From a virus (lineage: Duplodnaviria > Heunggongvirae > Uroviricota > Caudoviricetes), in IMG/VR virus record IMGVR_UViG_2713896770_000036: a stretch of 19,591 nucleotides of DNA; one strand, written 5' to 3'. Made by a program: the position numbers. This document shows positions 12,001 to 15,000 of the stretch, piece by piece (the first letter of the stretch is position 1; every line of letters starts with the position of its first letter).

Positions 12001-15000
12001 TGCAGCGCGTACTGGCGTTTTACCAGAATGGTTTTCGAGAGATATTCGGTGAACAGGTTATGCATGAGGGAAATCATGGCACTCAGGGCAGTGTGTAGGC
12101 ACGTTGACGGTAGAAAGCATATGGGGGATCGATCGTTCTTGTTATGCTGTAAGAGCGAAAGCGCAGGCGCTGGGTATCAACAGGATGTTACGGGGTGACT
12201 TTCACTTGAGCTAGTGGGATCAATTTTACTGTTGGGGTGGGGGGACGTTAAGTTGCTGACAATTTCGAAATGTTTTTGATAAAGGCAGCGATTTTCTTTG
12301 ATGGAGGGGCTACAAAAAATTTTTCATGTGAAATATGATATCTGCGATGTTATCAAATGTGAAAATATTTATGAATCTGCAAAAAAGAAGAAAAGTTCAA
12401 AAACTAAACTATCGCGGGCAAGTTTCGAAACTGAAGAGGGGGATATTTAATTCTCTGAAAAGCACGGATTGGGAAGGAGTAGAAAATGCGAAGAGAAAAC
12501 TGGAATATTACAAACGCACTCGTAAGCTACGAGTCTCGAAGAAAAAGTTGACAACAAGTAATAAAAGGGTGGTTTTTTCTGCTCCGATATCTATTAATTA
12601 TTACAACGATCGTGATTTTGAAATCATGAATAAATTTTTAAATAATTTACGCGATTGCGTGTTGAAGAATAATCGTGTTTATATAGATTTTTCTTCAACT
12701 AAATATATAAGTGCAGCTGCTATGTTATCTTTTCTCGCTGAAGTTGATGTGCTTATTAAGAAAAGTGAATTTGGAGTAAATGCCATAGGGTTTTCACATC
12801 CGAAAGACAAGAAAATTGAAAGCATTTTGAATCAAGTCGGTTTCTATGATCTATTAAGGAAACCTAAAAGAGAAACTGAAAGTTATGATGATGTGACTTT
12901 TTGGAAATATACATCAGGTTCTTGTTCTGAGCCTCTTTTAGCAAAAGAAATGATGGTGGAAATAAAAAAAGAGTTAGAAAGAAAATCATCAAAAAAATTA
13001 TACCGTGGCTTTACTGAGGCCATGTCTAATTCTGTCGAGCATGCTTATGTTGATGATTTTATGCATACGGAAGATGACGAAACAGCTAAGTGGTGGACCT
13101 TTGCTGGCATACATGACAAAAATCTTACAGTGGTAATATGTGATAAAGGAGTGGGAATACCTTCAACATTGCCTAAAACACAAGGTGTAAGTGTGCTAAT
13201 GAACATCTTCAAAAAACTTAGAGTTCCATTAGCAAATGTAAAGGATTCTACTTATATAAAGGCTTCCACGTTACTTCAGGAAACGAGGACTGGGGAGCTG
13301 AACCGAGGTAAAGGCTTGAATGATATCAAATCGGTAATCGATTCAATAGGTGATGGTTTTATGGGGATTTTTTCATCAAAAGGGCGCTATATTTACAAAG
13401 GGAAAACTGGCATTATTAACGAAGTGCTTAGAGATTACAAAAGCTCTGTTAATGGTACTATAATTGAATGGACAATTCCTTGTGAGGTGGAAACTGAGTA
13501 GTATGAAAATTATAAAAGTAGCCAGTCGTTATCCTTGCCCAGGACCTCGTTTTAAAAGATTGGGGCCCGCTTCTGGTGAGGAGTTTCGTGAGTGGGTAGA
13601 AAGAGAGCTTAAACATTCACCAGATCTAACAATAGACCTTGATGGAACGGAGGGGTATGGTTCTTCTTTCTTGGAGGAGTGCTTTGGCGGATTGATTAGG
13701 CGTGGCGTGAGTCCTGATAAGGTTAAAGGGATTAAATTTATCTCAGAAGAAGAACCTGAGTTAATTGACGAGATAAATGAATATATCGAGGACGCTATAA
13801 AGGTATCTCATGGCTAATTCAAGTATCCAGGTCTGTACTTGGAGTGCAGACTTTTGGTGTAAGTTTTTTTCTTTGTTTAAAGATGAAAATCAGTATGTAA
13901 CTTGGTTTTTAGTTTTAGTTGGATGGGGGATTACGGCATATATTGCTTATCTCCAAACCACAAAAAGTAGAGGAGATGCTATTAAAGATGCTCATAATGA
14001 ATGGATCGGTGAGTTTAGACAAAAACTGGAGTTGCTTGAGGATTTTGCCTTAGAGTTCTGGGCTGAAGATAATAATAAAGAACCTACACTGGCGTTAGCA
14101 AAAATGAGTAGGGAGGTTAAGAGTTTAACTACTATCGCTAAAGAAATTGAAAGGGCCGGTGGTGAAAAATATAAGGCAAAATTGTTTAAGGAATTACGCC
14201 AAGCCATGACATATGATAGTGATGTTCACAACCGACCTCTAAGACCTGATTGTATGCAAATTGTTAGGATTAGAGAAACATGTGCAAGTTTGAGAAGTGC
14301 GTACGGGCGCAAAAGCTTGACTGAATAACCTCATATTGCTGAGTAGCTGGTACTGCATATTATTATGAAAACACATCGTGGTTTTTATATAAAAGCTGCT
14401 TATTATTAAGAGATCTGTTTTATGTTTTTGGCTAGTAAAATGTGATTCTTAACTTAAATGTTCCCTTACACTAGATTTATAATATCATCGTGTGATTTAT
14501 AAACTATGCATTAGTAATAATTAATTTTTCGGAAAAATAGTTAAGTAAAATTGCTGCGTGTGCTTGAGGCTATCTGCCTCGGGCATGAACACCAACGGCA
14601 GATAGAGAAAAGCCCAGTTAACATTACGCGTCCCGCAAGACGTTTAATATTAAACTTAGGCCAATTTCATGCTAGACACATGGATGTTAGCCTCTTACGT
14701 GCCGAAAGGCAAGGAGAAGCAGGCTATGAAGCAGCAAAAGGCGATGTTAGTCGCCCTGATCGTCATCTGTTTAACCGTCATAGTGACGGCACTGGTAACG
14801 AGGAAAGACCTCTGCGAGGTACGAATCCGAACCGGCCAGACGGAGGTCGCTGTCTTCACAGCTTACGAACCTGAGGAGTAAGAGACCAGGCGAGGGAGGA
14901 ATCCCTCGCCACCTCTGATGTGTCAGGCATCCTCAACGCACCCGCACTTAACCCGCTTCGGCGGGTTTTTTGTTGCGTGCTGAATGCGTAGGGTGAAAAA

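What the first reader, a model, noticed from the sequence alone, without database searches (positions are those of the whole stretch)
14455..14980. hok/mok type I toxin locus directly downstream of the candidate operon
A clearly recognisable Hok-family toxin with overlapping mok-like frame and a terminator lies 400 bp after gene 3. Hok/sok has published roles in phage exclusion (T4) and element maintenance, so two potential abortive-infection modules are adjacent in the same island. The Sok antisense RNA should be encoded opposite the mok start (about 14600-14700, minus strand), but I could not define it confidently.
Basis: partly seen in the sequence, partly recalled or inferred. Interest (0 to 1): 0.6.

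Follow-up and report, generated by a model that had tools for sequence, protein, structure and literature searches.

The report
Ordinary prophage hok/mok/sok toxin-antitoxin cassette
This is a complete copy of the well-known hok/sok "host-killing" toxin-antitoxin cassette, sitting in a lambda-like prophage of E. coli; about three quarters of complete E. coli genomes carry the same cassette, so it is ordinary.

Summary
Window 14540-14975 holds a complete hok/mok/sok type I toxin-antitoxin cassette.

- **Toxin:** hok (14726-14881, 51 aa) matches Pfam HOK_GEF (E 7e-24), differs from K-12 HokD at one residue, and RefSeq already annotates it as hokD.
- **mok:** it starts at 14669 and is an in-frame N-terminal extension of hok.
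- **Leader:** it matches Rfam RF01794 at 97.6 bits (threshold 59).
- **Sok:** placed at 14677->14602 on the minus strand (about 76 nt), with promoter TTGCCT-17-TAACAT. This is the same -10 position that was mutated experimentally in the 92%-identical hokW-sokW locus of prophage Sp5.
- **mRNA fold:** the predicted full-length mRNA pairs its 5' end with its 3' end (tac/fbi) and hides the mok ribosome-binding site, as in plasmid R1.
- **Setting:** the "island" is the early-right region of a lambdoid prophage inserted beside yebY/ryeA-ryeB.
- **Frequency:** full-length copies occur in 4007 of 5426 complete E. coli genomes.

Nothing supports a functional link to the upstream operon.

The only unusual point is the allele. 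It carries three changes absent from the 76 other loci aligned, including mok SD GAGG->UAGG. The same substitution in R1 is loss-of-function, so toxin output may be reduced.

Verdict: already known, low interest.

The parts
14546..14551 (+). -10-like hexamer TAAAAT of the hok promoter. No good -35 is present; the conserved cassette begins only about 6 nt upstream of it.
   Evidence: It aligns with TATAAT (K-12 hokC), TATGAT (R1-type) and TAGAAT (hokW). It fell below the threshold of the consensus scan. Inferred, not shown.
14558..14975 (+). Full-length hok mRNA, about 418 nt
   Evidence: The 5' end is set by alignment to the R1-type mRNA start GGCGCUUGAGG and by the start of the Rfam model. 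The 3' end is the terminator. Fold z-score -5.6, with 0 of 100 shuffles folding as well.
14558..14569 (+). tac element, GUGUGCUUGAGG. Position 2 (14559) is U here and G in all 76 other aligned loci.
14610..14617 (+). ucb / anti-SD box, AAGCCCAG. It has one C fewer than the CCCC of all 76 other aligned loci.
   Evidence: It pairs with the mok SD region in the full-length MFE structure. Variation is shown.
14602..14677 (-). Sok antisense RNA, predicted about 76 nt. It has a single-stranded 5' end, a long hairpin and a U-rich tail (GGGCUUUUCUCUAU).
   Evidence: Both ends were mapped from the annotated K-12 sokC (L004 953-1011) through alignment A1. The 5' end lies 7 nt after the -10. Fold -21.6 kcal/mol, z -3.15. 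Expression was not tested.
14684..14712 (-). Sok promoter: -35 TTGCCT (14712-14707), 17-nt spacer, -10 TAACAT (14689-14684)
   Evidence: Read from the minus strand. The -10 is the hexamer that primers YO-421/422 mutated (TAACCT) to silence sokW in PMC8621323. It matches 8 of 12 consensus positions, below the scan threshold of 9.
14626..14643 (.). 18-nt insertion that forms a mini-hairpin in the loop of the Sok terminator hairpin / hok leader hairpin
   Evidence: Present in the window, hokW and pEC1515. Absent from K-12 hokC, the R1-type locus and PPompW. It appears as an insertion against the Rfam consensus.
14657..14660 (+). mok Shine-Dalgarno, UAGG here and GAGG in every other locus compared
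   Evidence: The same change in R1 (G105T) scored as loss-of-function in PMC9841398.
14669..14881 (+). mok ORF, 70 aa, in frame with hok
   Evidence: The layout matches the annotated K-12 mokC and ORF-33c of Stx2 phage I.
14668..14682 (+). Candidate Sok target stem-loop, CAUG-CUAGACA-CAUG, containing the mok AUG. It lies in the hypervariable block 14660-14689.
   Evidence: Rfam consensus structure. Entropy peaks at 0.6-0.75 bit per column against 0.2 or less elsewhere in the leader. Stem 70% paired, with one covarying pair.
14688..14695 (+). dcb-like box, UAGCCUCU, complementary to the mok SD region
   Evidence: Invariant block AGCCTCTTAC in alignments A1 and A2. It is called dcb by position, following PMC9841398. 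Inferred.
14726..14881 (+). hok toxin gene, 51 aa, preceded by SD GGAG at 14713-14716
   Evidence: Pfam HOK_GEF 7.2e-24; PHROG 251 'MokW-like host killing' 7e-33; annotated hokD, WP_000813269.1. 50 of 51 residues match K-12 HokD and 46 of 51 match HokW.
14889..14910 (+). 3' stem-loop, GGCGAGGGA-GGAA-UCCCUCGCC. It corresponds by position to the hairpin that protects the processed mRNA.
   Evidence: 9-bp helix in the MFE structure. 99.4% paired across 70 distinct sequences; one pair occurs as G-U, A-U or G-C (helix 16). The role is inferred from R1.
14931..14941 (+). fbi element, CCUCAACGCAC, which pairs with the 5' tac element
   Evidence: MFE structures of the window, hokW and R1-type mRNAs all close 5' to 3'. 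Helix 1 is 91% paired, against 34-42% for the slid controls over the whole structure.
14950..14975 (+). Intrinsic terminator: stem AACCCGC-UUCG-GCGGGUU followed by a T run
   Evidence: Five pairs show changes on both sides in helix 18.

Best explanation
Window 14540-14975 is an intact hok/mok/sok type I toxin-antitoxin cassette of the hokD/hokW (prophage) subtype. It is carried as a small accessory module between the replication genes and the nin/Q region of a lambdoid prophage.

Mechanism, inferred by homology to plasmid R1 hok/sok and Sp5 hokW-sokW:
1. A weak promoter makes a stable mRNA of about 418 nt. Its 5' end (tac) pairs with its 3' end (fbi), and the mok ribosome-binding site is held by an upstream anti-SD box, so the full-length RNA is silent.
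2. Slow 3' trimming removes fbi. The 5' end can then refold onto the anti-SD box and free the mok start.
3. The unstable Sok RNA of about 76 nt, transcribed from the opposite strand across the mok SD and start codon, binds that form. It blocks mok translation, and therefore the coupled hok translation, and the duplex is cut by RNase III.
4. When Sok synthesis stops, the pool of stable hok mRNA is translated. This could follow prophage induction, loss of the element, or transcription shut-off. The 51-aa Hok peptide then depolarises the inner membrane.

Most likely role here: the one shown for the 92%-identical hokW-sokW, assisting lysis and phage release on induction, and/or stabilising the prophage.

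Shown here: the presence, integrity and homology of every sequence element, and the predicted closed fold. Inferred: expression, processing, toxicity and role.
For: - Pfam HOK_GEF 83.6 bits and PHROG 251.
- Rfam RF01794 at 97.6 bits against a threshold of 59.
- RefSeq annotates the ORF as hokD in a 100%-identical genome, inside a prophage with integrase, exo/bet/gam, kilR, repressor genes, ydaV, lysis genes and terminase.
- Alignment with K-12 hokC/mokC/sokC, an R1-type plasmid locus and hokW-sokW shows every element in register.
- The published hokW primers match locus L002, which is 92.3% identical to the window. The mutated sokW -10 coincides with window 14689-14684.
- The full-length MFE structure gives tac/fbi closure plus SD sequestration in the window, hokW and R1-type RNAs alike. 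The open tac/ucb form lies 3.3, 1.2 and 1.6 kcal/mol above the MFE of the truncated RNA.
- Across 70 distinct related sequences, 92.9% of cells pair, against 34-42% for slid controls. Eleven pairs change on both sides, against 4.9 +/- 1.4 in shuffles.
- Full-length copies are present in 4007 of 5426 complete E. coli genomes and in 77 phage records.
- Mechanism and roles come from PMC9841398 and PMC8621323.
Against: - No expression data are available; the Sok ends and both promoters are inferred.
- Both promoters fall below the consensus-scan threshold.
- MFE prediction of the truncated RNA does not itself give the open form.
- This allele has UAGG in place of GAGG at the mok SD. The same substitution in R1 is loss-of-function.
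- Both the closed and the open helices are predicted to be weaker than in the common allele.
- Chromosomal hok loci tested earlier did not mediate post-segregational killing, as cited.
- The structure used for pair counting was derived from the window sequence itself, which inflates the paired percentage.
- The NCBIfam Hok models score below their cut-offs, 49 against 73 bits.
Confidence: 0.88

Rival explanations
1. The cassette is structurally complete but is an attenuated or nearly silent allele. The weakened mok ribosome-binding site (UAGG), the altered tac and ucb elements and a better Sok -10 (TAACAT) keep Hok output too low to kill. On this reading it is a tolerated passenger and not an active killer.
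For: - The window alone, among the 77 aligned sequences, has U at mRNA position 2, CCC in ucb and UAGG at the mok SD.
- R1 G105T (GAGG->UAGG) was recovered as a loss-of-function substitution.
- The closed hairpin is predicted at -12.9 against -17.8 kcal/mol, and the open tac/ucb stem at -22.5 against -28.5.
- The Sok -10 is one match closer to consensus than the common TAACCT.
- Chromosomal hokA, hokB and hokC were earlier reported unable to mediate killing.
Against: - The hok ORF, hok SD, mok AUG, fbi, the 3' hairpin and the terminator are all intact.
- An AGG core with 8-nt spacing remains at the mok SD.
- The identical 65-nt allele is kept unchanged in 24 genomes from pigs, cattle, mice, chickens, humans and river water.
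- The closed and open states are weakened by similar amounts, 4.9 and 6.0 kcal/mol, so the switch may stay balanced.
- The R1 assay measured survival without Sok. It did not measure complete loss of translation.
Confidence: 0.2
2. The cassette serves mainly as an abortive-infection (phage-exclusion) module and works with the upstream ATPase/STAS-like/172-aa operon as a two-part defence island.
For: - R1 hok/sok on a high-copy plasmid reduced T4 plating by 42% and plaque size by about 85% (Pecota and Wood 1996, as quoted).
- The operon and this hok allele co-occur in 23 of the 24 genomes that have either.
- Prophage accessory regions often carry defence genes (general knowledge).
Against: - None of the three upstream proteins, nor Hok, hits any PADLOC model.
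- hok is not enriched near defence systems, 12% against 9.4% at random.
- The same cassette sits in many other contexts in 4007 genomes without this operon.
- The co-occurring blocks are 99.9% identical, which indicates recent shared descent and not selection for linkage.
- hokW-sokW promotes phage release and does not block it.
Confidence: 0.1
3. The match is a chance ORF or a decayed fragment like K-12 hokD (relF), which lacks its own leader, mok start and Sok.
For: K-12-type genomes match only from window 14712 onward (hits H84-H87). Truncated copies therefore do exist.
Against: The window has the full leader, matched end to end by the Rfam model, positions 1-157. It aligns over the whole 435 bp with hokW and phage loci.
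Confidence: 0.01

Closest known systems
hokW-sokW of Sakai prophage 5 (Sp5, Stx2 phage) of E. coli O157:H7 (Takada et al. 2021, PMC8621323)
   Same: - Same cassette in the same kind of element, a lambdoid prophage, with 92.3% DNA identity over 414 bp (H49).
- Same in-frame mok, same 18-nt insertion in the Sok hairpin, same Sok promoter position and same fbi sequence.
- For hokW-sokW the toxin, the antitoxin and a role in lysis and phage release were shown experimentally.
   Different: - The toxin differs at 5 of 51 residues: I9V plus the C-terminal VDYESEK against TAYEPEE.
- The Sok recognition loop differs, CUAGACA against CUGAACA.
- The window has the allele-specific changes: tac U2, ucb CCC, mok SD UAGG and Sok -10 TAACAT.
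- The window keeps the GC-rich terminator that the Stx2 phage locus lacks.
hokD (relF) of the Qin cryptic prophage, E. coli K-12
   Same: The toxin is 50/51 identical (I9V). The 3' UTR, fbi and terminator are the same. Both lie in a lambdoid prophage. RefSeq names the window gene hokD.
   Different: K-12 hokD has lost the leader, the mok start and sok. Homology begins only at window 14712, and relBE lies upstream. The window copy is complete.
hok/sok (parB) of plasmid R1, the archetype
   Same: The order of elements is the same: tac, 5' hairpin, ucb, Sok hairpin, mok SD, mok, dcb, hok SD, hok, 3' hairpin, fbi. The predicted closed fold is also the same. The mechanism is taken from this system.
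   Different: It is plasmid-borne. Only about 44% toxin identity is reported for HokW against Hok. The 5' hairpin is longer and there is no 18-nt insertion. The role there is post-segregational killing.
hokC/mokC/sokC (gef) of E. coli K-12
   Same: Annotated mokC is likewise an in-frame extension of hokC. The annotated sokC boundaries map onto window 14677-14602.
   Different: It is chromosomal and lies next to IS186. SokC is 59 nt because it lacks the 18-nt insertion, and the 3' UTR differs.

Membership tests
[quoted passage not shown] | Toxin of about 50 aa with an N-terminal membrane helix, matching the Hok/Gef profile | tested here: met
   PF01848 E 7.2e-24, 83.6 bits against a cut-off of 22, covering profile positions 1-42 of 42. 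PHROG 251 E 7e-33. NCBIfam Hok subfamily model scores 49 bits, below its cut-off of 73.
[quoted passage not shown] | mok reading frame that starts upstream of hok and runs through it | tested here: met
   ORF 14669-14881, 70 aa, in frame with hok. K-12 mokC, Stx2 phage ORF-33c and the R1-type locus have the same layout. Translational coupling itself cannot be tested here.
[quoted passage not shown] | Cis-encoded antisense RNA (Sok) with its own promoter, complementary to the mok SD and start | tested here: met
   Tested at sequence level only. The TTGCCT-17-TAACAT promoter, the +1 at 14677 and the hairpin plus U tail ending at about 14602 cover the SD (14657-60) and the AUG (14669-71). The boundaries are homologous to annotated sokC, and the -10 is homologous to the mutated sokW -10. 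Transcription was not tested.
[quoted passage not shown] | Long-range 5'-3' pairing (tac/fbi) that locks the full-length mRNA | tested here: met
   The MFE structure pairs 14558-14569 with 14931-14941; z -5.6. The same closure appears in the hokW and R1-type RNAs. The helix is 91% paired in 70 sequences but nearly invariant, so it carries little covariation signal.
[quoted passage not shown] | Switch between the closed form (ucb pairs with the mok SD) and the open form (tac pairs with ucb) after 3' processing | tested here: inconclusive
   The closed form is in the MFE structure. The open form lies 3.3 kcal/mol above the MFE of the truncated RNA, against 1.2 for hokW and 1.6 for R1-type, and is not the MFE in any of the three.
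[quoted passage not shown] | Leader RNA matching the curated covariance model (Rfam RF01794) | tested here: met
   97.6 bits against gathering 59, model positions 1-157 of 157, on the + strand. The model named 'sok' in fact describes the sense-strand hok leader.
[quoted passage not shown] | 3' processing of hok mRNA, RNase III cleavage of the duplex, instability of Sok, toxicity of Hok | not testable with these tools
   These need Northern blots, rifampicin chase and toxicity assays. They are known for R1 and partly for hokW.
hokD/hokW prophage subtype (consensus leader) | Conserved, not defining: GAGG mok SD, GGGUGC 5' end and CCCC in ucb, as in all 76 other aligned loci | tested here: not met
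   The window has UAGG (14657), GUGUGC (14559) and CCC (14613-15). This marks a divergent allele and does not exclude it from the family.
Known anti-phage defence systems (PADLOC-DB v2) | A protein of the locus or of the adjacent operon matches a defence-system model | tested here: not met
   No hit at E <= 0.01 for Hok or for the three upstream proteins.

The most novel reading that the evidence does not exclude
Two readings are not excluded.

(1) The divergent allele may be a naturally re-tuned hok/sok that is co-selected with the uncharacterised ATPase / STAS-like / 172-aa operon. The allele has tac U2, a shortened anti-SD box, a UAGG mok SD and a stronger Sok -10. It travels with the operon as one 2.6-kb block, for example as a membrane-killing back-up or effector arm of a new prophage-borne defence system.

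(2) The sharp variability peak at the Sok 5' end and target loop (14660-14689) may reflect diversifying selection for non-cross-reacting Sok specificities among the up to nine hok/sok copies that share one E. coli cell.
Probability: 0.07. Interest if true: 0.5.

Novelty: already known. Interest (0 to 1): 0.1.

Why it matters
It matters little for discovery. The element is a textbook toxin-antitoxin system, already annotated in the source genome and present in most E. coli.

Its practical value is as annotation. It supplies the mok and Sok coordinates that RefSeq omits. It also shows that hok next to the neighbouring three-gene operon should not be counted as evidence that the operon is a defence system.

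The allele-specific change in the mok ribosome-binding site offers a natural test of a loss-of-function substitution found by deep mutational scanning of R1.

Tried and rejected
1. **Compensatory triple.** I tested whether tac G2U, ucb delta-C and mok SD G->U compensate each other, by folding all eight combinations on two backgrounds. This is not supported. The SD change destabilises the closed hairpin in either ucb context, and delta-C recovers only about 1 kcal/mol of the tac/ucb stem. The allele simply has weaker closed and open helices.
2. **Open form from MFE.** I expected MFE folding of the 3'-truncated RNA to give the open, translatable form. It instead gives the 5' hairpin in which tac pairs with the sequence just downstream, and it keeps the SD sequestered. 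The same failure occurs for hokW and R1-type controls, so the negative result is uninformative.
3. **Covariation for the target hairpin and the tac/ucb stem.** In 70 distinct close relatives the signal is weak: 2 pairs change on both sides and the shuffles do as well. The sequences are too similar, and the hypervariable block aligns poorly.
4. **Consensus promoter scan.** It found neither the hok nor the Sok promoter. Both were placed by homology instead.
5. **PADLOC on Hok and the upstream operon.** No hits.
6. **NCBIfam Hok models.** Below their cut-offs.
7. **Downstream ORF against K-12 Rem.** The 70-aa ORF 15156-15368 shows no similarity to Rem.
8. **mok frame.** My recollection that R1 mok is out of frame with hok did not hold for the R1-type IncFII locus fetched here, where mok is in frame.
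Full report
**What the window is**

The 821 bases around the finding are 100% identical to the chromosome of E. coli F2_407_2_2. The RefSeq annotation of that region shows a lambdoid prophage inserted beside yebY. It carries integrase, excisionase, ralR, exo/bet/gam, kilR, repressor-type HTH genes, a ydaV replication gene, DUF1367/1364/1133 nin-region genes, holin, lysozyme, terminase and portal.

Rfam hits across the window agree with this picture: SdsR/RyeA at the attachment site, then RalA, DicF, C4/isrK and STnc100/AgvB. The "island" is therefore the early-right region of a prophage, between the replication genes and the nin/Q genes.

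**Check of the observation**

- hok is ORF 14726-14881, 51 aa. It matches Pfam HOK_GEF at E 7.2e-24 and PHROG 251 'MokW-like host killing' at 7e-33.
- RefSeq annotates it as hokD. The peptide differs from K-12 HokD at one residue (I9V) and from HokW at five.
- mok is ORF 14669-14881, 70 aa. It is in frame with hok, as are the annotated K-12 mokC, ORF-33c of Stx2 phage I and the mok of an R1-type IncFII plasmid.
- A GC-rich hairpin followed by a T run lies at 14950-14975.

The Rfam model RF01794 matches 14558-14731 over its full length, at 97.6 bits against a gathering score of 59. The hit is on the + strand. The model named 'sok' therefore describes the hok leader, which contains the Sok-complementary segment.

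**Anatomy**

I aligned the window with hokW (Stx2 phage I), a PPompW phage locus, a plasmid hokD, K-12 hokC, an R1-type locus and K-12 hokD. Every element falls in register.
- **hok promoter and mRNA start.** The -10-like TAAAAT (14546-14551) aligns with TATAAT, TATGAT and TAGAAT in the other loci. The mRNA start aligns at 14558.
- **Sok boundaries.** The annotated sokC of K-12 maps through the alignment onto 14677->14602 on the minus strand. This gives a Sok of about 76 nt.
- **Why Sok is longer here.** It exceeds the 59-nt SokC because of an 18-nt insertion (14626-14643) that forms a mini-hairpin in the loop of the Sok hairpin. hokW and pEC1515 share the insertion; hokC, the R1-type locus and PPompW lack it.
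- **Sok promoter.** Upstream on the minus strand lie TTGCCT (14712-14707), a 17-nt spacer and TAACAT (14689-14684), with the +1 seven nt further on.
- **Experimental support for the -10.** The mutagenesis primers in the hokW-sokW paper change exactly this hexamer (TAACCT in hokW) to silence sokW. The paper's probes and primers match locus L002, which confirms that L002 is hokW-sokW.
- **Sok fold.** The predicted Sok folds into a long hairpin with a U-rich tail (z -3.15). It covers the mok SD (14657-14660) and the AUG (14669-14671).

**Folding**

The 418-nt mRNA folds well below shuffled controls (z -5.6). Its 5' GUGUGCUUGAGG pairs with 3' CCUCAACGCAC (14931-14941). The GCC of the anti-SD box pairs with the GGC of the mok SD region. 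The same closed architecture comes out for the hokW and R1-type RNAs. It matches the tac/fbi and ucb/SD model summarised in PMC9841398.

After removal of the 3' end, the MFE structure has tac paired with the sequence just downstream. This resembles the described metastable hairpin. The open tac/ucb form lies 3.3 kcal/mol above the MFE, against 1.2 and 1.6 for the two controls. The switch is therefore plausible but not demonstrated by prediction.

Across 70 distinct related sequences, the full-length structure is 92.9% paired, against 34-42% for slid controls. Eleven pairs change on both sides, against 4.9 +/- 1.4 in shuffles. One caveat applies: the structure was derived from the window sequence itself.

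**How common it is**

| Collection | Result |
|---|---|
| 5426 complete E. coli genomes | 4007 hold a copy covering at least 80% of the 441-bp cassette; median 2 places (any match), up to 9, per genome |
| Phage records | 105 match, 77 of them over at least 80% of the cassette; annotated MokW, HokD, gef or host killer protein |
| IMG/VR viral contigs | at least 578 stretches encode a close relative |

K-12-type genomes match only from window 14712 onward. This is the known truncated hokD behind relBE.

A 2026 survey reports Hok in almost 80% of Enterobacteriaceae genomes. It found hok enriched in prophages (23% against 5% expected) and not enriched near defence systems (12% against 9.4%).

**What is particular to this copy**

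Of the 80 viral-contig loci, 78 have a recognisable leader. In the 77-sequence alignment, which holds the window, 75 of those loci and hokW, the window alone has these changes:
- GUGUGC in place of GGGUGC at the 5' end (14559);
- CCC in place of CCCC in the anti-SD box;
- UAGG in place of GAGG at the mok SD (14657);
- TAACAT in place of TAACCT at the Sok -10.

The SD change corresponds to R1 G105T, which deep mutational scanning recovered as a loss-of-function substitution. I tested whether the three leader changes compensate each other, and they do not. Both the closed hairpin (-12.9 against -17.8 kcal/mol) and the open stem (-22.5 against -28.5) are simply weaker.

The exact 65-nt allele occurs in 24 of 5426 genomes, from varied hosts. 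It is therefore a stable minority allele and may be an attenuated one.

**Relation to the upstream operon**

The three genes at 12371-14328 also occur in 24 genomes at 99.9% identity or more, and 23 of those carry this hok allele. That is co-inheritance of one recent block.
- None of the three proteins hits PADLOC.
- Gene 2 has a DUF4325 STAS-like domain.
- No terminator-like site lies between gene 3 and hok, so read-through into the cassette is possible.

I found no evidence of functional coupling.

**Mechanism and role**

The regulatory mechanism is taken from R1. The role is taken from hokW-sokW. There, Sok RNA disappears after mitomycin C, HokW is made in a RecA-dependent way, and phage yield halves without the locus. 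T4 exclusion by R1 hok/sok was modest and was measured on a high-copy plasmid.

I rank the possible roles as follows: prophage-linked roles first (help with lysis, or addiction), an attenuated passenger second, and a dedicated abortive-infection role third.

**Verdict**

The element is already known and already annotated. Interest is low.

Noticed in passing
window 12371-14328 (+): This three-gene operon encodes a 376-aa 'ATP-binding protein' (phrog_3364), a 104-aa DUF4325 STAS-like protein and a 172-aa protein with no Pfam family. None has a PADLOC hit. It is present in only 24 of 5426 complete E. coli genomes, and 23 of those also carry this exact hok/sok allele.
   Followed up: partly
window 14660-14689: This is the sharpest variability peak of the cassette, at 0.6-0.75 bit per column against about 0.02 in hok. 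It covers the mok start, the Sok 5' end and the target hairpin. At least eight loop variants occur among viral contigs, such as CUAGACA, CUGAACA, CUCGUCA and CGACA, and some stems change on both sides. It looks like diversification of Sok specificity among co-resident copies.
   Followed up: partly
window 14864-14867: The Tyr47 codon TAC is followed by G, inside the block TTACGAA that is invariant in all seven loci of alignment A1. This is the TadA A-to-I editing context reported to recode Tyr to Cys in hokB and at the equivalent codon of hokC, hokD and hokE (preprint 10.1101/2025.08.07.668861).
   Followed up: no
window 15156-15368 (+): This 70-aa ORF (GTG start) is not annotated in RefSeq and lies in the 460-bp AT-rich gap after the hok terminator. 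It matches phrog_1813 (unknown function) at E 1.7e-32, over profile positions 13-81 of 91, so the true start may lie further upstream. It has no similarity to K-12 Rem.
   Followed up: partly
window 14558-14731 (+): The Rfam family RF01794, named 'sok antitoxin', matches the sense (hok) strand from the mRNA 5' end to the hok start codon. An annotation pipeline that uses it will place 'sok' on the wrong strand and make it about twice too long.
   Followed up: yes
window 14540 and 14975 (cassette edges): Homology to hundreds of other loci starts only about 6 nt upstream of the hok -10 and ends at the terminator. The roughly 435-bp cassette therefore behaves as a portable module and takes its -35 region from whatever lies upstream.
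   Followed up: partly
window 463-607, 2169-2347, 7345-7396, 16900-17101, 17876-17935, 18022-18277: Other RNA genes in the window are SdsR/RyeA at the prophage junction, RalA (antitoxin of RalR), DicF, a C4/isrK antisense pair upstream of an ORF6N gene, a tRNA, and STnc100 with AgvB (anti-GcvB) on the opposite strand. The prophage is rich in regulatory RNAs.
   Followed up: no
L003 2120-2275 (K-12 Qin prophage): K-12 hokD (relF) shares the window's coding region, 3' UTR, fbi and terminator, but homology stops at window 14712. This complete locus shows what the truncated K-12 gene has lost.
   Followed up: yes
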